From a virus (Duplodnaviria; Caudoviricetes), in the IMG/VR virus record IMGVR_UViG_3300027991_000080, positions 1-64,000 of that record: a stretch of DNA of 64,000 bases, one strand, 5' to 3'. This document shows, piece after piece, positions 1,961-62,186 of the stretch. The notes beneath the pieces were generated by a model. That model saw only the letters and a list, made by a program, of their open reading frames with translations, was not told the DNA's origin and searched no databases. The position numbers and the translations under genes are program-made. Position 1 is the stretch's first letter. Every line of letters begins with the position of its first letter.

Positions 1961-2166
1961 TTGATCTCGAACCCACAGTTCGGACACCTTCCGTCAGCCT
2001 TACTTCGACCTCCAGGAAACGTTTCGAAGAGACATGGCGTCAAGTGGCCAGAGTACTTGACGCAGCACTTGACGCCCCCGTCCTCCCCGGCCTGCGTCTT
2101 TGGACAACGCAGGGTCGGGGAGTTAACCGGACAGTATTCAGGGATCAGTTCTTTTTCCTGCGACAA
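1957..2166 (-). CDS. small Cys-rich protein
   Basis: Seven Cys with terminal CPNC; stop overlaps next ATG (ATGA). Confidence 0.45.
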   Translation of the reverse strand: MSQEKELIPEYCPVNSPTLRCPKTQAGEDGGVKCCVKYSGHLTPCLFETFPGGRSKADGRCPNCGFEIK

Positions 2167-3565
2167 GAAACAACTCCTTCTTCGCCCGAGTGCAGGCGAC
2201 GTAATAGAGATTCTCCTCTTCCAGTCCCGGACGCTTCATGTACGTGTCGGAGAGCAGCCAGACCCGGTCGCGCTCGAGGCCCTTTGCCTTGTGCGTCGTC
2301 GACAGCGTGATCCTCGACTTCTCGTCACCGTCCGAGAACAACGACTCGATGCGGCGTGTTACCTCTCCGACCGTCTTCGCGCCATCGCTGAGAGCGAGAA
2401 TGCACTCCGCGCGGTCCTCCACCGAAGTGGTATCGCGACGCTTCTGCGCCAGGCGGGCGCATTCGTTGTTGCGCCACGTCTCGACGTAATCGCGAAGCGC
2501 TTCGACCGTCTTCGCCTTGCTCTTCCGGACGAACGCAGCAAGCGAGGCACCAACGTCGCGGCCCTGGATGTTTGCCCGGCGCCCCTCGGTGAGAAGGGCC
2601 ATGCAGATCGAGATCAGCGGGCCATTGGTGCGGCTCAGAATGAAGTCTCCCGGTTTCGCTTCGCGATACATCCTCTTGGAGGTCGCATCCGACACCACGC
2701 CATCGACAGCGTCCGGCGCCCATTCGATCTCCGGAACGACGGTCTGCGCTTCCTGAATGACCGACTTGCAGCACCGGTAGCACACGCTGAGCGGCAGAAC
2801 CTTCGCCTGCAGCCGGCTCACCACGTTGGAGACGGCGCTCGAATCCGCTCCGCGGAAGCCGTAGATGGCCTGCCGCGGGTCGCCAACGGCGCAGATCCGA
2901 CCGTTCTCCGAGACCGCGCGCATCGCAAGCTCGATCTGACAACGGTTCAAGTCCTGTGTCTCGTCGATGAACACGCGGTCGAACTTCGATTGCCGGAGCT
3001 CGAGGACCACCGGAAGCCAGATCATGTCGTCGAAGTCGATCCGCCCGTCCTCCTGAACCTCGGTGCACTGGAGAAGGATCTTGAGCGCGTTCTGAATGAA
3101 CGTCGCGCGTTCCCCGTTCTTCGCCGACTCGATTTCGAAGGCGTCGACGATTGCGTCGATATCGGCCTCGTCGCTGGCGAGCTGCCCCTTAGCGAGCGAA
3201 ACCGTTTTCGCCAGGTCGCGCCGCATGTCGAATTCCTTCGGATCGTCGCCGAGGGCGGCCTTGATCAGGTCTTCCACCCGGTTTGCGTCGATGCGCAGGC
3301 GTCCGAGGCACTTGGTGATCGTGCGCAGGCCGTACGAGTGCAGCGTTGACACCTCTACGCCCCGCGGAGCGCGCTTCTTGAGCTCCTCAGCGATGCTCTT
3401 ATTGAACGCCACGAAGAGCGTCCGACAGCCTGTCGGAACGTACTCCATAGCCTTGACGATCGTGGTGGTCTTGCCCGAGCCGGCGACCGCGGTGATTACC
3501 GTGTGCCCGGAACCGTTCGCAACGTCGTCGAAAACCGCCTGCTGATACTTGCTCCAATTGGTCAT
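2138..3565 (-). CDS. UvrD/Rep-like SF1 helicase
   Basis: AVAGSGKT Walker A, FIDETQD, VGDPRQAIYGFRGA, STTHKAKGLE, YVACTRAK; GGAG RBS before ATG 3565. Confidence 0.92.
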   Translation of the reverse strand: MTNWSKYQQAVFDDVANGSGHTVITAVAGSGKTTTIVKAMEYVPTGCRTLFVAFNKSIAEELKKRAPRGVEVSTLHSYGLRTITKCLGRLRIDANRVEDLIKAALGDDPKEFDMRRDLAKTVSLAKGQLASDEADIDAIVDAFEIESAKNGERATFIQNALKILLQCTEVQEDGRIDFDDMIWLPVVLELRQSKFDRVFIDETQDLNRCQIELAMRAVSENGRICAVGDPRQAIYGFRGADSSAVSNVVSRLQAKVLPLSVCYRCCKSVIQEAQTVVPEIEWAPDAVDGVVSDATSKRMYREAKPGDFILSRTNGPLISICMALLTEGRRANIQGRDVGASLAAFVRKSKAKTVEALRDYVETWRNNECARLAQKRRDTTSVEDRAECILALSDGAKTVGEVTRRIESLFSDGDEKSRITLSTTHKAKGLERDRVWLLSDTYMKRPGLEEENLYYVACTRAKKELFLVAGKRTDP

Positions 3566-3695
3566 GTTCGGGATCTCCAATTCCCGTTCTTGTCTACGTT
3601 GTCTACAGACGGATCTACCCCGCCGGGCCCGTGCTTCGCAAAAAAGATTCTACGGCCACCAAAACGGGCCCGACAGAGGAAGAATTCTGCCGTCC

Positions 3696-4166
3696 CTAGA
3701 AGGGCGGCGCGCTCCCTCCCCCGGAGGCCGGCGCAGAGCCGCCTCCGCCCCCTCCCAGAGCCGCCAGGCGCGCCTTGAACGTGTTCACATCGAGCGGCTT
3801 GGAAAGCGTCACGGTGCCCGCGCTGGTCACGATCTCGAGCTTCGCTGAGCCCATCTTGATGACGCCGGCGCTGTCCTTGTACTGCTCCGGAGCCTTCACC
3901 TGGCAGGGCACCCAGTTCTGGTAGATATTCCCCAGGTTGTCGATATCCTGGGGACCCTGACCCTTCCAGCCGAGCAACCGAAGACGCTCGTAGGCGTACA
4001 CGATCGATTTGTCTGTGAAATAGAGAAATGTGGTCATCTCTCCGACAATCTTTCCGTCTCGGCGAAGCTCCATATCGATGGCGATCTGGAGAGAACCTGA
4101 CTCGCTCTCCCCGAACTGAACCTTTCCCTGAATCGCTCGTCCTTCGCAGTCTCCCGGTGCAATCAT
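3696..4166 (-). CDS. putative single-stranded DNA-binding protein
   Basis: Beta-rich core, Gly-rich tail ending APPF, translationally coupled to the Sak4-like ATPase. Confidence 0.6.
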   Translation of the reverse strand: MIAPGDCEGRAIQGKVQFGESESGSLQIAIDMELRRDGKIVGEMTTFLYFTDKSIVYAYERLRLLGWKGQGPQDIDNLGNIYQNWVPCQVKAPEQYKDSAGVIKMGSAKLEIVTSAGTVTLSKPLDVNTFKARLAALGGGGGGSAPASGGGSAPPF

Positions 4167-5071
4167 GTTCCTGTTTTCTCCTTCGATGCCGCGCGTGATT
4201 CTTCCAGTCGAGCCGCTACGCGGTTTCGCGCCTCGACGATCATTGCAGAATTAGCTCGCAGGTATTCGTTGACCATGGTGGTCAGACCCTTGTCGTTGAT
4301 CTCCGCAAGCATCTCATCGATCTCCTTTCGGAGAGCAACGGCTCGCGCGTCGTCTTCTGCTCGCGCCTTGGCGAACTCATCCCACGACAAGAGCACACGA
4401 GACGGAAACATCGTAGTACCGCGCGCCTTCGCGTCGAAGGCTGGGCAGCGTTGTGTGTAGGCCCAGCGAACGCCAGAGGTCACCGCCTTCAGGTCGCCAC
4501 CGACTTTCTGTTGACTGACCTCCTCTCGAGCGAACAGCACATAGTCGCTCCACTGACGAAGGAGACCAGCGATCTTGTCGCGCATCGAAATCTCGAACCG
4601 GTCGTACGCCGGCCCCGTCGGATCGTCGAAGTGTTTCACCTTCATGTGTCCGACGAAGATGATTGGCTTCCCGGTCTTCCAGACTCGCTCCAGGGCCGCA
4701 AGAAGCTCACGCCACCGGGAGAGCGCAACCGTTTCACCCTTTCCGTATCCGCCGTCCCACTTGTCGATCGTAGATCCCGGGAAGAACTCCAAGTTGCCCA
4801 GGTGTTCCAGATCTCCCAGCGCATCAATGATCAGCGAGCCGCACTTCTGCGCGCCGGTCTCAACAGCGGTTATCCACTCGAGTGCCTCTGGCCACGTTTC
4901 AGGCACAACGCGCTTCACGTCGTACTGGTACGAGCCCTTGTTGACGTCGATAAAAAACGGATCCGGAGCACCAGCGGCGAAACGGGTCTTGCCTACACCA
5001 TCCCCACCGTAGACGAGCACACGCGGCTCGAGTTTCTGTTTGCCGGAGCTGACTCTCTTCAAATCAATCAT
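4163..5071 (-). CDS. AAA_24 / Sak4-like recombination ATPase
   Basis: VLVYGGDGVGKT Walker A, LIIDALGDLE, FVGH, QWSDYVLFA, AFDAKAR. Confidence 0.85.
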   Translation of the reverse strand: MIDLKRVSSGKQKLEPRVLVYGGDGVGKTRFAAGAPDPFFIDVNKGSYQYDVKRVVPETWPEALEWITAVETGAQKCGSLIIDALGDLEHLGNLEFFPGSTIDKWDGGYGKGETVALSRWRELLAALERVWKTGKPIIFVGHMKVKHFDDPTGPAYDRFEISMRDKIAGLLRQWSDYVLFAREEVSQQKVGGDLKAVTSGVRWAYTQRCPAFDAKARGTTMFPSRVLLSWDEFAKARAEDDARAVALRKEIDEMLAEINDKGLTTMVNEYLRANSAMIVEARNRVAARLEESRAASKEKTGT

Positions 5072-5333: not shown

Positions 5334-6188
5334 TTATTCTCCCCGCACCGACCTCCACTTCCCTGAGCGGATGCACTTGGTCATCTCACCCACGTCTTCG
5401 TAGTTCGCGTCGATCCACGCAGCGATGTCGGTCGCCACGGCGTCTTCCCCCTTCTTGCTGACAGTGCTCTTGCCGGTGACGATCTCTCGCGCCTTGGTGC
5501 CGTTCTTGCGACGCTTCTGCCCGGGAGCTCGCGGAGCCTTCTCGATGAGCTCCTCTACCTTCTCCTTCGCGTCTGCCGGCTCCAGCTTGGCGAGCTTGTA
5601 CCCTTCGCTCGTCGAGATCTTGCCAGCCTCGACAGCGCTCCGCACGATCGCCGGTGCATCAAGGAGCCCCAGCATGTTCTTGACCGACGCCTGGCTGATA
5701 CCGAACAACACCGCCACCTCAGCTTCGTCGCGCCCGAGCTCGATATAGCGCTGCATCTTCTTGGCGCGCCCGATCGGCGTGTCGTCCTGGCGGTTTTCGT
5801 TCTCGCTGATGAGAACGCCCATCGCGCGGTAGCCGTTGCCGGCGGACACGCGCTGAATCATCGCGGGCACTCGAATCGGTTCGAGACCCTGCTTCTTCAG
5901 GCGCTTGTTCGCCTCGCGAGCTGCCTTCACGCGCTGTCGTCCGACGACCACCTCAACCTTCCCAGTCTCGGTGTTGCGCGCAACGGTGATGGGCTCGATC
6001 ACTCCCTGAGGAACGCCATCCGGCGCGTGCATCATGTTCAGAACCAGGGACTCACTCACCGGCAGGTGAACCCGTTCGTCGTAGAGCGGCGACTTCTCGT
6101 CCTCGACGAGGATCACGTCCTCCGGATCGAACATGTAAGCGTCGCGTTTTCCCTTGGCGTTGAGCGAGTCTCGAGAGGTTTTCGGCAT
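5334..6188 (-). CDS. ParB-like N-terminal domain protein with HTH
   Basis: PLYDERVHLP, GVIEPITV, VVVGRQRVKAA, SENENRQDDTPIGRAKK, HTH-like EVAVLFGISQASV; start re-called to ATG 6188. Confidence 0.85.
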   Translation of the reverse strand: MPKTSRDSLNAKGKRDAYMFDPEDVILVEDEKSPLYDERVHLPVSESLVLNMMHAPDGVPQGVIEPITVARNTETGKVEVVVGRQRVKAAREANKRLKKQGLEPIRVPAMIQRVSAGNGYRAMGVLISENENRQDDTPIGRAKKMQRYIELGRDEAEVAVLFGISQASVKNMLGLLDAPAIVRSAVEAGKISTSEGYKLAKLEPADAKEKVEELIEKAPRAPGQKRRKNGTKAREIVTGKSTVSKKGEDAVATDIAAWIDANYEDVGEMTKCIRSGKWRSVRGE

Positions 6189-6225
6189 GGCTGGAATCCT
6201 TGTGTAGCGCGTGTTGCGCTTGTTG

Positions 6226-6492
6226 TCAAAGTCTACGTTTGCGGCTTGCGGATCTTCCCCGTTTCCGAGCAAGACGCTTTTTCGCGTCCTCACGTATCTG
6301 TCGATGGGCCTCCCTGAGTCTTCCTTCAGCCATTTCAACGGCTTCCCCCATTGCCTTCGCAGCACTTATAGCAACGGCGCTACCGAAGACTTTTCCAAGC
6401 ATGGTGATGATTACCTTGTATCCGTTCGGGCTGTCGTAGATAGCCGCCTGGAACGAACGGTGCTCTTTAAGGAATCCCCAGGTTTTTTTCAT
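6226..6492 (-). CDS. hypothetical protein
   Basis: ATG with upstream GGAG; co-oriented in operon. Confidence 0.5.
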   Translation of the reverse strand: MKKTWGFLKEHRSFQAAIYDSPNGYKVIITMLGKVFGSAVAISAAKAMGEAVEMAEGRLREAHRQIREDAKKRLARKRGRSASRKRRL

Positions 6493-6508: not shown

Positions 6509-7570
6509 TCAGACCGGCGACGTCAAATCCCGCACCGCTTCCGCCTCGACGATGGCGTCGACCTTCCCGCCTAGCGAAAACGTTTTCGAGGCAGCACCGG
6601 TGGCAGGGTTGATGAGCGGGATCTGAAACAGTTTCTCGATAGCGACCACTCCTGTCGTGGGCCCCCAGTACGCCGCGTAGCCCATGATCATCGCCCGCTC
6701 CTTGGCGCGCACGTACGGATCTTCCGTCTCGAGCGCATCGATCGCGGCATCGACGTAGCGATCACCGCCTCTCCGGAAGACGTCGAGAGCTGCGTGCACG
6801 CTATGACCAGTGGAGAGCGTATCTGCTCGCTTGATGGGTCGCATGCGCAGAATGTAGCGAAGCTGCGCAAGACGCGGACACTTGCGATAGGCGCGCATGA
6901 AGCTCTGAGTAAGCAAGTTCAGATCGCTCGACACCAGTGCGCCGTCTGACGCGAGCTCTTCATGCACGTCTTCGTCGAACTTGAACAGCAACGGATCCTT
7001 GATGTCGGTGATTCCCGAGCACACGTTCAAGTAGTCGCATTCGCGCCCCCATTGGATGCACGAGTCCGGATTGCGCGGATAGATGTTCAGACGACGCGCT
7101 TCTCGCATGTGCTGAGCGGTGTTCCAGATGTCCGCTGCAGCTTCGCGTTCGTCGGCCTCGAGACGAACGACGACTCCGCGAGCGTAATACTTCTGCGGGT
7201 TCTCTGCGATCGCCTCGAGACAGCGAGCACCATACTCCTCTGGTGTCTCCGGACGAGACTTGAGCACGTATCCGAGCTCCGTGTCGCCGGTCTGGCGCCA
7301 CTTCTTACCGTCCTTCGTGCGAACACGCTGGCCCGCGGCATCGACGACGATCTTGATTCCGTCGGAGTCGAGCTCGGGGATTGCGGACGGTTTCTGATCC
7401 GGCTTGCGCAGCACATCGTACACGCATCCGCGCACGTCGTGACCCATCGCGCGCACGGCGGGCAGGTAGAGAGAGAGCTGCGGATCGAGCGTGGTGCGTT
7501 TCCAGAAGGTTGAGCCGAAGGAGATATCTTCGCTCGACGTTTTCGTCTCCCAAAGAAAAACCTGAGTCAT
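6509..7570 (-). CDS. PD-(D/E)xK Cas4/AddB-like exonuclease, circularly permuted
   Basis: WETKT, PQLSLY and CIQWGRECDYLNVC are N-terminal; RKCPR, GHSVH, IEKLF and GGKVD are C-terminal. Confidence 0.85.
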   Translation of the reverse strand: MTQVFLWETKTSSEDISFGSTFWKRTTLDPQLSLYLPAVRAMGHDVRGCVYDVLRKPDQKPSAIPELDSDGIKIVVDAAGQRVRTKDGKKWRQTGDTELGYVLKSRPETPEEYGARCLEAIAENPQKYYARGVVVRLEADEREAAADIWNTAQHMREARRLNIYPRNPDSCIQWGRECDYLNVCSGITDIKDPLLFKFDEDVHEELASDGALVSSDLNLLTQSFMRAYRKCPRLAQLRYILRMRPIKRADTLSTGHSVHAALDVFRRGGDRYVDAAIDALETEDPYVRAKERAMIMGYAAYWGPTTGVVAIEKLFQIPLINPATGAASKTFSLGGKVDAIVEAEAVRDLTSPV

Positions 7571-7719
7571 TTGTCGGTCAATCCATCGATCTGTTCTTGC
7601 ATTTTTTCCACCTTCTTCTCCAGATCGCGAATCCGATCGAGCATCGACTCACCATCTTCAGGACATTCGTGATCTTGCTGGTACCGAGCGTTGCACTTTG
7701 GACAGATGAGCATTCCCAT
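7567..7719 (-). CDS. small Zn-finger/coiled-coil protein (50 aa, not in ORF track)
   Basis: MGMLICPKCNARYQQDHECPEDG...LEKKVEKMQEQIDGLTDK; stop overlaps nuclease ATG. Confidence 0.55.
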   Translation of the reverse strand: MGMLICPKCNARYQQDHECPEDGESMLDRIRDLEKKVEKMQEQIDGLTDK

Positions 7720-8802: not shown

Positions 8803-9014
8803 CGCTTTTGTTCTGCCAGCTCCTCGAGCAGCCTCGAGGCCTCAATGAACCCTTCCGCAATTAGTCTTGCGCGAGCTCTACCGAGCTCGTCTCGAATGGC
8901 CGGCGGATTGTTCACTGAGCCAAGCGCCGGCTCTCCCGCGCGCGCCTGAAAGTAACGGGATCGATCTATAGCGTCGAGCGCAAGTCTCTCCAGAGCGTCC
9001 GACAGAAAGCTCAC
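8799..9014 (-). CDS. hypothetical protein
   Basis: GTG 9014 overlaps exonuclease stop. Confidence 0.5.
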   Translation of the reverse strand: MSFLSDALERLALDAIDRSRYFQARAGEPALGSVNNPPAIRDELGRARARLIAEGFIEASRLLEELAEQKR

Positions 9015-9688
9015 GCGACGACCTTGTTGACCTTGAACGGAAGTCCTTTCGCGTCTTCCTCCGGCATCCGCCGCCACCAGATCTTTTTGCTCGGGTCCCA
9101 CCTAAATCCTGCCTGTTTCACCATCTCTCTGTCGTCATACGACGCGAGCGAGTGAAACATCGCCTTCGGTCGCATCGCGTGGCGGATGATCGCCTGCAGG
9201 TCATGTCCGCGCTCCGCGAGTCGAGTGAAGATGCGCGAGAGCGTGTCGACGTCGGCCATCGCGCGATGCGCGCTAGCGACGCCGAGTCCCAGCGACAGAG
9301 CCAGGTGCACAAGGGAGCCGCCTCGCTCACGCCCCGGCCATTTGAAATCGTTTTCCGAACAAGCCCATGGCTTGTCGAAGTTTGGACAGAACTGCCAATC
9401 GAACTCGGCGTTGTGAGCAATGATCACAGTGGCCGGCTCGATAATCCAGCGCACCGCGCGCCACACCGGATCCGCCTCTCGCGCAGACGGAAGCATCCCC
9501 GCCGGGATCCCGTTCACAGCGAACGCTGCGTTGGACTCCCCGCGGATCAGGCTCGCGAACGATATAACCGGTTGCGCGTGAGCGACATCGAACAGCGCGA
9601 CCGCTACCTCGATGGTCCTGTCGACCTTCGGATCCATTCCAGTGGTCTCAGTGTCGAGTAGAGCGACGTACTTGATCTCGTCAGACAT
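9011..9688 (-). CDS. DEDDh 3'-5' exonuclease (DnaQ-like)
   Basis: LLDTETTG, IAHNAEFD, AHRAMADV motifs. Confidence 0.9.
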   Translation of the reverse strand: MSDEIKYVALLDTETTGMDPKVDRTIEVAVALFDVAHAQPVISFASLIRGESNAAFAVNGIPAGMLPSAREADPVWRAVRWIIEPATVIIAHNAEFDWQFCPNFDKPWACSENDFKWPGRERGGSLVHLALSLGLGVASAHRAMADVDTLSRIFTRLAERGHDLQAIIRHAMRPKAMFHSLASYDDREMVKQAGFRWDPSKKIWWRRMPEEDAKGLPFKVNKVVA

Positions 9689-10130
9689 CGCGCAACCCGT
9701 CCAAGCTCGTGATAAACGTCGCCTCTCGGAACATGAGCTCCGGCTCCTGCGGTTCGAGCTGTACGACGTAGCAGCGCTTTCCCTGTCCCATCGCGTACCC
9801 GAATTCCCAGGACGCAGAGCGTCCGCAAGGCAACACGTACACGCAAACGTCGCACTCGCGAAGCGCAGTGATGTCGAGCAAGTACCCTGCTTTCGCTATC
9901 GGGTGTTGAAGCGTCTTGACTAACTCTTCTGCGGCTACCGGTTCACCCGGAACCCAGTGCGGATTGATCTGGCGCCACCCGAATCCGTTATTTCCGGGAG
10001 CCGGATTCCTGAAGTCGTAAACGTCGTGCCCGCTCTGTCGAAGGATCTCGACGACGCTCTGTTGATGCGGATTCCGCCAGCTTGAGGCCACGTATATTTT
10101 TGTCGCCGTCGCCACGTATGTCTTCATCAC
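9681..10130 (-). CDS. nucleoside 2-deoxyribosyltransferase-like protein
   Basis: KIYVASSWRN, DITALRECDVCVYVLPCGRSASWEFGYA, matching the NDT fold pattern. Confidence 0.75.
   Translation of the reverse strand: MMKTYVATATKIYVASSWRNPHQQSVVEILRQSGHDVYDFRNPAPGNNGFGWRQINPHWVPGEPVAAEELVKTLQHPIAKAGYLLDITALRECDVCVYVLPCGRSASWEFGYAMGQGKRCYVVQLEPQEPELMFREATFITSLDGLRDV

Positions 10131-58332: not shown

Positions 58333-62186
<3,854 letters not shown>

What the first reader, a model, noticed from the sequence alone, without database searches (positions are those of the whole stretch)
6509..7570. Circularly permuted Cas4/AddB-like PD-(D/E)xK exonuclease
Known motif order for this family: S..Y..CPR, GxxxH, E, GxxD, (D/E)xK, QLxxY, C-x-C-x-C. 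Seen here: WETKT, PQLSLY and C-x5-C-x5-C come first. After an acidic linker come TQSFMRAYRKCPR, GHSVH, IEKLF and GGKVD at the very C-terminus. The new termini fall exactly in the loop between the catalytic Asp and the ExK motif, and the four putative Fe-S cysteines become contiguous. The gene has coupled start and clean stop, so it looks intact. Inference: a functional permutant serving as the recombination exonuclease beside the Sak4-like ATPase and SSB.
Basis: partly seen in the sequence, partly recalled or inferred. Interest (0 to 1): 0.8.

Follow-up and report, generated by a model that had tools for sequence, protein, structure and literature searches.

The report
Circularly permuted phage Cas4-like nuclease
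This phage gene encodes an iron-sulfur DNA-end nuclease whose two halves are in swapped order compared with most relatives; the swap is natural, conserved and under selection, it cuts the chain inside the catalytic hairpin, and it is one of two different permutations found in this one protein family.

Summary
The gene lies at 6509-7570 on the minus strand and encodes 353 aa. It is a true circular permutant, called CP1 here, of a Cas4/AddB-like PD-(D/E)XK phage exonuclease.

- **Swapped order.** Against canonical relatives, residues 8-208 match their residues 134-334 (58% identity, E 1e-87). Residues 217-351 match their residues 3-138 (37% identity, E 6e-24).
- **Break point.** The chain is cut in the turn of the beta-hairpin between the catalytic Asp and the ExK motif.
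- **Junction.** The old C-tail (HxEL motif) is fused to the old N-head through about 6-10 new residues.
- **Not a misassembly or a relic.** The order recurs in 113 of the 270 family proteins retrieved. All catalytic residues and all four cysteines are conserved. dN/dS is 0.04-0.19, and this is the only copy in a 76.7-kb provirus.
- **Fold.** AlphaFold models it as one confident domain (pLDDT 90, pTM 0.84).
- **Family pattern.** The same family holds canonical forms and a second permutation, CP2, in which the first ~55-75 residues are moved to the end. One origin of CP2 is rejected (AU p 7.6e-6). One origin of CP1 is not rejected (p ~0.06).
- **Context.** In 90 of 90 loci with enough flank, whatever the order, a Sak4-like annealase gene lies downstream.
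- **Corrections.** The cysteine spacing is Cx6Cx5C, and the "acidic linker" is mostly a conserved family motif.

The scan's earlier notes describe the same CP1 and CP2 types on other DNA. I found no published description.

The parts
6509..7570 (-). Whole gene of the circularly permuted (CP1) Cas4/AddB-like PD-(D/E)XK nuclease, 353 aa plus stop
   Evidence: ORF. Pfam PF12705 at 49 bits against a cutoff of 22. phrog_1218 exonuclease, E 5.6e-22. 100% match to P0001, seen on 12 contigs. AF2 pLDDT 90.2, pTM 0.84.
6944..7564 (-). Residues 3-209, the part that is the C-terminal two thirds of canonical relatives. It holds the ExK strand (E8, K10), the QxxxY helix (Q31, Y35), a variable beta-rich insert (about residues 62-105), a helical region and the Cx6Cx5C triad (C171, C178, C184), followed by the HxEL tail motif.
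   Evidence: Maps to canonical profile positions 139-345. 58% identical to P0103 residues 134-334. Weak structural match of residues 1-189 to Cas4 chain 7mi4_A residues 93-206.
6926..6943 (-). Residues 210-215, the core of the new junction between the old C-terminus and the old N-terminus
   Evidence: Gap between the two profile matches. Lower pLDDT (77-78) around residues 201-220. Variable in length and sequence among CP1 homologues.
6542..6925 (-). Residues 216-343, the part that is the N-terminal third of canonical relatives. It holds the first Fe-S cysteine (C231 in ...CPR), GxxxH (H259), two long helices, the E strand (E312) and the GGKxD strand (D338).
   Evidence: Maps to canonical profile positions 4-134. 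37% identical to P0103 residues 3-138. Pfam best stretch is residues 220-344 to profile 2-135. Weak structural match to the Cas4-family protein ACE1, residues 5-157.
6509..6541 (-). New C-terminal tail (residues 344-353) and stop codon. The chain ends 15 residues after the catalytic Asp.
   Evidence: Tail length varies from 5 to more than 30 residues among CP1 lineages.
7567..7719 (-). Upstream 50-aa ORF with CxxC...C residues; its stop overlaps the nuclease start (ATGA)
   Evidence: No family match.
4163..5071 (-). Sak4-like ssDNA-annealing ATPase (AAA_24), the presumed partner of the nuclease
   Evidence: phrog_124, E 4e-30. PF13479, E 2e-32. A homologue lies downstream of the nuclease in 90 of 90 loci with enough flank, in all three gene orders.
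3696..4166 (-). 156-aa protein with a Gly-rich tail ending in PPF; a putative DUF669-like phage SSB
   Evidence: No Pfam, PHROG or NCBIfam match. Atlas neighbours include clusters in which 10-15% of members carry DUF669. Conserved next to Sak4 in the CP1 loci.
2138..3580 (-). DNA helicase that closes the recombination/replication module
   Evidence: phrog_1967, E 1e-95. Conserved downstream in the CP1 loci.
5334..6492 (-). ParB-like gene (5334-6365) and an 88-aa ORF (6226-6492) inserted between the nuclease and Sak4 in this phage
   Evidence: phrog_1033, E 4e-41, and the ParB HTH domain. The same ParB insertion occurs in L004, L008 and L009 but not in L001-L003 or L005-L007.

Best explanation
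The gene encodes a functional, naturally circularly permuted nuclease of the Cas4/AddB/AdnA type, that is, a PD-(D/E)XK core with a four-cysteine iron-sulfur 'staple'.

**How the order arose (inferred).** The order most simply arises from a head-to-tail duplication of a canonical gene. The two copies fuse in frame: the old C-tail with its HxEL motif joins the old N-head with its ...CPR motif. Both outer ends are then lost. The new start sits just before the ExK strand and the new stop just after the GGKxD strand.

**Fold (modelled).** In canonical enzymes the Fe-S cluster already ties the first cysteine, near the N-terminus, to the three C-terminal cysteines. Joining those ends is therefore structurally cheap. 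The only cost is an open beta-hairpin turn between the Asp strand and the ExK strand. The folded protein should rebuild the usual active site from H259, E312, D338, E8, K10, Q31 and Y35, and bind the cluster through C231, C171, C178 and C184.

**Function (inferred).** It is the end-processing nuclease of the phage's recombination module. It resects DNA ends to give single strands, which the SSB-like protein and the Sak4-like ATPase encoded downstream then anneal for recombination-dependent replication and repair.

**Shown here:** the permutation itself, its break point, its conservation and selection, the single-domain model and the gene context.

**Inferred:** metal and Fe-S binding, nuclease polarity, partnership with Sak4, and the duplication route.
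For: - **Swapped collinearity.** Two strong HSPs in swapped order against canonical relatives. Profile mapping is 139-345 followed by 4-134. Pfam matches in two stretches.
- **The junction is old tail plus old head.** See the alignments and the conserved HxEL motif.
- **Conservation.** E8, K10, Q31, Y35, C171, C178, C184, C231, H259, E312 and D338 are invariant or in at least 90% of 35 CP1 sequences down to 48% identity.
- **Selection.** dN/dS is 0.04-0.19 over nine CP1 genes; for example L001 against L006 gives dN 0.035 and dS 0.87.
- **Only copy.** It is the only copy in a 76,740-bp provirus estimated 95% complete.
- **Model.** AF2 gives pLDDT 90.2 and pTM 0.84, and its secondary-structure elements are those of the canonical model in rotated order.
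- **Fold of the family.** Canonical relative P0103 (pLDDT 96) matches ACE1/Cas4-family, AddB, RecE, AdnA and Cas4 SSO0001 at probability 0.97-1.00. The canonical profile hits AdnA at E 1e-5 and Cas4 4ic1 at E 2.7e-4.
- **The halves match the opposite halves of solved nucleases.** Residues 216-347 match ACE1 5-157 and residues 1-189 match Cas4 93-206, both weakly (Z 3.2-3.9).
- **Context.** Sak4-like gene downstream in 43/43 canonical, 38/38 CP2 and 9/9 CP1 loci with enough flank. In Pseudomonas phage Phi47 a helicase, a Cas4-domain exonuclease and a Sak4-like AAA protein, encoded next to a DUF669 SSB, co-purified with that SSB (PMC13687109).
Against: - No biochemical data exist for any member.
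- No model coordinates were available, so I could not measure that D338 and E8/K10, or the four cysteines, actually meet in the model.
- Structure searches with the permuted model gave only weak partial matches: Foldseek found nothing at E <= 1e-3, and VIA-align gave Z <= 3.9.
- No tandem copy, fused duplicate or flanking remnant was found, so the duplication route has no direct trace.
- In this window the nuclease is 1.4 kb from Sak4, not adjacent.
- The SSB assignment is only a lead.
Confidence: 0.85

Rival explanations
1. Assembly or gene-calling artefact: a canonical gene was wrongly joined or rotated by the assembler, for example through a collapsed tandem repeat.
For: Reads could not be inspected. 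Metagenome assemblies can collapse or rotate repeats.
Against: The exact protein was seen on 12 contigs. About 100 further 90%-identity clusters from JGI, ENA, NCBI and Logan have the same order at 48-75% identity. Ten IMG/VR contigs carry it in mid-contig with conserved neighbours. Changes are mostly synonymous. The gene lies 6.5 kb inside the record.
Confidence: 0.01
2. Decaying remnant of a tandem duplication: the ORF is open but no longer an enzyme, or it serves only as a DNA-binding or structural protein.
For: Permutants pass through duplicated intermediates. The catalytic hairpin is cut, which might be expected to harm activity. There is no biochemical evidence.
Against: dN/dS is 0.04-0.19. 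Every catalytic residue and every cysteine is conserved across CP1 down to 48% identity. It is the only copy in the genome. No remnants of a duplication remain.
Confidence: 0.05
3. The active unit is a strand-swapped dimer. Because the hairpin is open, the N-terminal ExK strand of one chain pairs with the C-terminal Asp strand of another. Active sites would then be built across subunits, as in T7 endonuclease I.
For: Domain swapping is documented in the PD-(D/E)XK superfamily (PMC3424549). The two catalytic strands are the free chain ends here. Some CP1 lineages carry long C-terminal tails.
Against: The monomer model is confident, with both terminal strands at pLDDT 92-95. No oligomer prediction was run and no coordinates were available, so this is untested rather than contradicted.
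Confidence: 0.08

Closest known systems
Canonical-order phage PDDEXK_1 'exonucleases' of the same family (e.g. P0103, P0116; Pfam PF12705, phrog_1218)
   Same: Same sequence family, with 37-58% identity per segment. The CP1 member P0101 reaches 66-78% identity to canonical P0116. Same catalytic residues, four cysteines, HxEL tail motif and optional beta-rich insert. Same position upstream of a Sak4-like gene.
   Different: Chain order. Canonical proteins run CPR - GxxxH - E - GGKxD - ExK - QxxxY - Cys triad. This protein starts at ExK and ends at GGKxD.
AddB / AdnA nuclease domains and Cas4 or Cas4-family proteins (PDB 4CEJ_B, 3U4Q_B, 6PPR_A, 4IC1, 9IAC ACE1)
   Same: RecB-like PD-(D/E)XK core in which one N-terminal and three C-terminal cysteines hold an Fe-S cluster. 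Canonical family members match them by fold at probability 0.97-1.00 and by profile at E 1e-5 to 2.7e-4.
   Different: Those proteins are all in canonical order. They are either helicase-fused (AddB, AdnA) or CRISPR/Argonaute-associated (Cas4, ACE1). This one is a stand-alone phage protein, permuted, and scores only 16 bits against the Cas4 equivalog model, whose cutoff is 65.
Second permutation (CP2) in the same family, e.g. P0105, P0115, many IMG/VR loci, and gp56 'exonuclease' of the cultured Tunturiibacter phage Tunturi_2 (PP885685.1)
   Same: Same family and same Sak4/SSB context. The old C-tail is likewise fused to the old N-head.
   Different: The break lies after the GxxxH helix (profile positions ~55-79), so only the first ~55-75 residues move to the end and the D/ExK hairpin stays intact. 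Break points vary, and a single origin is rejected.
Known circular permutation in the PD-(D/E)XK superfamily: Hef/XPF-type nuclease (PDB 1J22)
   Same: A natural permutation of the restriction-endonuclease-like core (PMC3424549).
   Different: There only the first core helix has moved to the C-terminus, in a different family without an Fe-S cluster. Here the cut lies between the two catalytic strands.
Cas4-domain exonuclease Gp61 next to the DUF669 SSB Gp63 and Sak4-like AAA protein Gp64 of Pseudomonas phage Phi47 ('Healer', PMC13687109)
   Same: Same kind of module: helicase, Cas4-like exonuclease, DUF669-type SSB and Sak4-like annealase. The SSB/annealase pair has been tested in recombinational repair.
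   Different: I did not compare its sequence or gene order with this protein, and the paper does not mention a permutation.

Membership tests
PD-(D/E)XK nuclease superfamily, Pfam PDDEXK_1 (PF12705) | Score above the Pfam gathering threshold | tested here: met
   49 bits against a cutoff of 22, E 1e-12, in two stretches.
PD-(D/E)XK nuclease superfamily, Pfam PDDEXK_1 (PF12705) | Catalytic D ... (D/E)xK signature plus the accessory H, E and QxxxY residues | tested here: met
   D338, E8-x-K10, H259, E312, Q31 and Y35 are present and conserved in 35 CP1 homologues.
PD-(D/E)XK nuclease superfamily, Pfam PDDEXK_1 (PF12705) | Collinear motif order (Cys/H - E - D - ExK - QxxxY - Cys triad) | tested here: not met
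   The order is ExK - QxxxY - Cys triad - Cys/H - E - D. This is the finding itself: homologous, but permuted.
Cas4/AddB/AdnA-type iron-staple nucleases | Four cysteines (one near the N-head, three near the C-tail) able to hold one Fe-S cluster | tested here: met
   C231 plus C171, C178 and C184 are invariant in CP1. The equivalents C17, C297, C304 and C310 are invariant or nearly so in canonical members.
Cas4/AddB/AdnA-type iron-staple nucleases | Actual Fe-S cluster binding and metal-dependent nuclease activity | not testable with these tools
   Needs purified protein (UV-vis or EPR, nuclease assays).
Cas4/AddB/AdnA-type iron-staple nucleases | RecB-like fold shared with solved members | tested here: inconclusive
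   The canonical relative matches AddB, ACE1, AdnA, RecE and Cas4 at probability 0.97-1.00. The permuted model itself gives only partial matches at Z 3.2-3.9, each half to the opposite half of a solved nuclease, and Foldseek finds nothing at E <= 1e-3. This is expected for sequential aligners on a permutant.
CRISPR-associated Cas4 proper (TIGR00372 equivalog) | Score above the NCBIfam cutoff, and CRISPR-Cas context | tested here: not met
   16.3 bits against a cutoff of 65. The neighbours are phage replication and recombination genes.
Phage exonuclease + Sak4-like annealase recombination module | Sak4-like (AAA_24) gene downstream on the same strand | tested here: met
   In the window it lies at 4163-5071, 1.4 kb downstream. 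Found in 90 of 90 related loci with enough flank.
Phage exonuclease + Sak4-like annealase recombination module | Cognate SSB next to Sak4 | tested here: inconclusive
   The 156-aa neighbour matches no family model. It is only DUF669-like by atlas neighbours, in which 10-15% of members carry DUF669.

The most novel reading that the evidence does not exclude
This nuclease family is a natural hotspot of repeated circular permutation. The Fe-S cluster holds the two chain ends together, so the same gene has been re-cut independently several times at two permissive sites, the D|ExK hairpin and the loop after GxxxH. The re-cut forms persist because they change how the enzyme works. For example, the open catalytic hairpin or the new free tails could alter DNA threading, oligomer state, partner binding, or sensitivity to a host inhibitor.
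Probability: 0.15. Interest if true: 0.8.

Novelty: new variant of a known kind. Interest (0 to 1): 0.66.

Why it matters
Natural circular permutants whose canonical and permuted forms are still 50-78% identical are rare. Here one enzyme family offers three chain orders side by side, in the same gene context. It is a ready-made test of how chain connectivity affects folding, Fe-S cluster assembly and catalysis. The CP1 cut lies between the two strands that carry the catalytic Asp and the ExK motif, a place one would expect to be intolerant.

There is also a practical point. Sequential structure search missed the fold entirely: Foldseek found nothing for the permutant, while its canonical relative hit AddB and Cas4-family proteins at probability 1. 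Such proteins are therefore under-annotated, and databases call them only 'hypothetical' or 'PD-(D/E)XK superfamily'.

The cultured Tunturiibacter phages carry the CP2 form, so at least one permutant can be studied in a living phage-host pair.

Tried and rejected
Contexts came from the search for related loci instead.
- **Foldseek of the permuted model against PDB:** no match at E <= 1e-3. VIA-align wide gave only Z <= 3.9, with P450 helical noise interleaved. I take this as the expected failure of sequential aligners, not as a new fold.
- **phmmer of the query against PDB sequences:** only alpha-repeat noise.
- **Search among longer proteins for fused tandem duplicates:** only three intein-bearing canonical forms.
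- **Search among shorter proteins for split genes:** only fragments on short contigs, plus one internal-start call on a long contig.
- **Second copies or relics.** Six-frame profile scan of about 100 loci: one nuclease ORF per locus.
- **Direct-repeat test of flanks against gene ends in 48 permuted loci:** nothing. The two outliers are a gapped GC-rich match inside the Sak4 Walker A region (L051) and a 25-nt match (L091).
- **In-frame extension upstream of the start.** In the window, L051 and L075 it resembles the preceding profile positions only weakly. It overlaps the upstream gene in the window and was not accepted as a relic.
- **AU test for a single CP1 origin:** p 0.065 with 56 rows and p 0.058 with 30 rows. 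It is not rejected, so multiple CP1 origins are suggested but not shown.
all 97 Sak4-like ORFs in my loci are collinear with the window's Sak4.
- **Genome-contig scan for hosts:** only two distant MAG hits, so the host remains unknown.
Full report
**What is there.** The finding's coordinates hold one ORF on the minus strand, 6509-7570, 353 aa. Its ATG overlaps the TGA of a 50-aa upstream ORF, and it has a single stop. It begins with ...FLWETKT. The motifs then follow in this order:
- PQLSLY
- a beta-rich stretch and a helical region
- C171-x6-C178-x5-C184
- the motif VHEEL
- ...YRKC(231)PR
- GHSVH(259)
- IE(312)KLF
- GGKVD(338), 15 residues before the end

Pfam PDDEXK_1 matches above threshold in two stretches. 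The best maps residues 220-344 to the first 135 profile positions. PHROG 1218 'exonuclease' also matches.

**Is it really a permutation?** Yes.
- BLASTP against a canonical-order relative (P0103, 336 aa) gives two HSPs in swapped order. Query 8-208 matches subject 134-334 at 58% identity (E 1e-87), and query 217-351 matches subject 3-138 at 37% identity (E 6e-24).
- A profile built from 14 canonical members (347 positions) maps residues 3-209 to positions 139-345 and residues 216-343 to positions 4-134.
- In that profile the catalytic Asp is position 129 and ExK is positions 144-146.
- The join is the canonical C-tail, whose HxEL motif is nearly invariant in canonical members, fused to the canonical N-head. 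Only about 6-10 residues are new.

**Not an artefact and not a relic.**
- The exact protein was recorded on 12 contigs.
- About 100 further 90%-identity clusters from four data sources share the order at 48-75% identity.
- Ten IMG/VR viral contigs carry it in mid-contig.
- In 35 CP1 sequences, E8, K10, Q31, Y35, H259, E312, D338 and all four cysteines are invariant or present in at least 90%.
- Pairwise dN/dS among nine CP1 genes is 0.04-0.19.
- The window belongs to an IMG/VR provirus record of 76,740 bp, estimated 95% complete, and this is its only copy.

**Structure.**
- AlphaFold2 with a 35-sequence alignment gives one confident domain (pLDDT 90.2, pTM 0.84). Its only dips are at the variable insert (residues ~81-100) and the junction (~201-220).
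- A canonical relative folds with pLDDT 96.2. Its helices and strands are the same series rotated: canonical E131-138 through E322-324 corresponds to CP1 E3-12 through E196-198, and canonical H8-16 through E114-128 corresponds to CP1 H222-230 through E327-342.
- The canonical model hits ACE1 (Cas4 family), AddB, RecE, AdnA and Cas4 SSO0001 at Foldseek probability 0.97-1.00. The canonical profile hits AdnA (E 1e-5) and Cas4 4IC1 (E 2.7e-4) by sequence.
- The permuted model gets no Foldseek match at E <= 1e-3. With VIA-align it gets only weak partial matches. These have the expected polarity: residues 216-347 match ACE1 5-157, residues 1-189 match Cas4 93-206, and residues 157-347 match AdnA 785-929 (Z 3.2-3.9).
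- I could not obtain coordinates, so the geometry of the active site and of the cluster site is not measured.

**The family has three chain orders.** I mapped 270 retrieved proteins onto the canonical profile. They comprised the 120 best of 570 word-search hits and the 150 best of 2,632 representatives at E <= 0.001. The result was 129 canonical, 113 CP1, 13 CP2 and 15 fragments or unclear.
- CP2 starts at profile positions ~56-79 and ends with positions 3 to ~60. Only the N-head carrying the first cysteine and GxxxH has moved to the end.
- CP2 is common in IMG/VR.
- CP2 also occurs in the cultured Tunturiibacter phages, where gp56 of Tunturi_2 is annotated simply 'exonuclease' and is followed by a Sak4-like protein and an SSB.
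- The optional insert at profile positions 200-241 is present or absent in all three orders.

**One origin or several?** I rotated the permuted sequences back to canonical order and aligned them to the profile. I dropped the insert, the termini and both break regions, leaving 253 columns, and built trees.
- FastTree on 158 rows and IQ-TREE on 56 and 30 rows all scatter the permuted forms among canonical ones.
- Starred branches force at least 2 changes for CP1 and at least 3-4 for CP2.
- The AU test rejects a single CP2 clade (delta lnL 106, p 7.6e-6).
- The AU test does not reject a single CP1 clade (p 0.065 and 0.058).
- The clearest CP1 outlier is P0101. All three of its segments are closest to canonical proteins (71% to P0112 and 68% to P0116 in the N-piece; 84% and 79% to P0116 in the two C-piece segments). 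It is only 49% identical to the window's protein.
- CP2 break points vary between positions 55 and 79, as independent events would.
- Gene conversion across the long collinear core could inflate the apparent polyphyly of CP2. The head segments of P0126 and P0154 are as close to canonical P0127 (69-72%) as to each other (69%), but P0175's head is closest to another CP2.
- My reading: several CP2 origins are likely, and two or more CP1 origins are possible but not shown.

**How the permutation arose.** The old-tail-to-old-head junction fits the classic route of duplication, fusion and truncation. I found no direct trace of it. There were no fused duplicates among longer proteins, only intein-bearing forms. 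There were no convincing split genes. No second copy or remnant appeared in about 100 loci. Flanks share no significant repeat with gene ends. The route is inference.

**Context and function.**
- In every related locus with at least 1.2 kb of downstream flank, a Sak4-like gene follows on the same strand: 43 canonical, 38 CP2 and 9 CP1 loci. It usually lies within ~100 nt.
- In the window, reading down the minus strand, the order is as follows:
  - DnaQ-like exonuclease
  - small ORFs
  - the CP1 nuclease
  - an 88-aa ORF
  - a ParB-like gene
  - Sak4-like AAA_24
  - the 156-aa DUF669-like protein
  - a helicase
- The rest of the window carries primase-polymerase, helicases, endolysin and a collagen-like tail fibre, so this is a tailed-phage genome.
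- In Pseudomonas phage Phi47 the genes for a helicase, a Cas4-domain exonuclease and a Sak4-like AAA protein lie next to that of a DUF669 SSB and their products co-purified with it. Its SSB and AAA pair mediates recombinational repair (PMC13687109).
- The most likely role is therefore end resection that feeds Sak4-mediated annealing. This is inferred from family and context, not shown.

**Comparison with what is known.**
- The PD-(D/E)XK survey records circular permutation only for the first core helix of Hef/XPF-type nucleases (PMC3424549).
- Full-text searches for permuted Cas4-like or RecB-like nucleases returned nothing relevant. The CIRPIN survey of permutations does not mention nucleases or phages.
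- The protein fails the CRISPR Cas4 equivalog model (16 bits against a cutoff of 65). It should be called Cas4-like or RecB-like, not Cas4.
- The scan's own earlier notes (AI notes, not publications) describe the same CP1 type on another genome (e1-5920483) and the CP2 type on two others (e1-5897878, e1-3467623). My results agree with them and were obtained independently on this window.
- One earlier remark, that the neighbouring ATPase is permuted too, was not reproduced in my loci.

**Verdict.** This is a real, conserved and selected circular permutant of a known enzyme family. It is a new variant of a known kind. The cut lies in an unusual position, and the family shows evidence of repeated permutation.

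Noticed in passing
P0121, P0122, P0123 (canonical relatives, 696-771 aa): These proteins carry inteins with a LAGLIDADG homing-endonuclease domain, inserted inside the catalytic ExK motif (EHK | C...HN | T). The site lies only 7-10 residues downstream of the CP1 break point.
   Followed up: partly
window 7258-7387 (-), residues ~62-105 of the nuclease; profile positions 200-241: A beta-rich insert (…DxxGxKIVxDxxGxRVRTKDGKKWR…) is present or absent in canonical, CP1 and CP2 members alike: 35 changes on the 158-row tree. P0098 has a different, Cys-containing insert at the same site.
   Followed up: partly
L105 (PP885685.1, Tunturiibacter phage Tunturi_2) 3249-4286: gp56 'exonuclease' of a cultured Acidobacteria phage is a CP2-type permutant (profile 59-342 followed by 6-57). 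It is followed by the annotated Sak4-like protein gp54 and SSB gp53. Tunturi_1 has the same arrangement. This is a usable experimental system.
   Followed up: yes
window 5334-6492 (-): A ParB-like gene and an 88-aa ORF are inserted between the nuclease and Sak4 in this phage and in L004, L008 and L009, but not in the other CP1 loci. The two ORFs as listed overlap by 140 nt, so the ParB start at 6365 is probably too far upstream.
   Followed up: no
window 3696-4166 (-): This 156-aa protein has a Gly-rich tail ending in ...APPF, like an SSB C-terminal tip. It matches no Pfam, PHROG or NCBIfam model. Atlas neighbours are viral clusters in which 10-15% of members carry DUF669.
   Followed up: partly
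window 9011-10130 (-): A DnaQ-like 3'-5' exonuclease (phrog_192) and a nucleoside deoxyribosyltransferase (phrog_12607) lie upstream in the same operon-like block. The latter hints at nucleotide salvage or base modification.
   Followed up: no
window 58336-61920 (+): A 1194-aa tail-fibre protein with many collagen-like repeat matches.
   Followed up: no
P0141 (443 aa) and P0144 (444 aa): P0141 is a CP1 form with an extra ~127-residue N-terminal extension. P0144 has only the C-piece (profile 142-344) behind 238 unrelated residues. These may be further rearrangements or fusions.
   Followed up: no
BFVD entry A0A6J5NSY1 (uncultured Caudovirales phage, 343 aa): This is the best viral structural match to the permuted model (E 6.6e-11, 305 aligned columns). 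It probably has the same or a similar permuted order but is annotated only as 'PD-(D/E)XK nuclease superfamily'.
   Followed up: no
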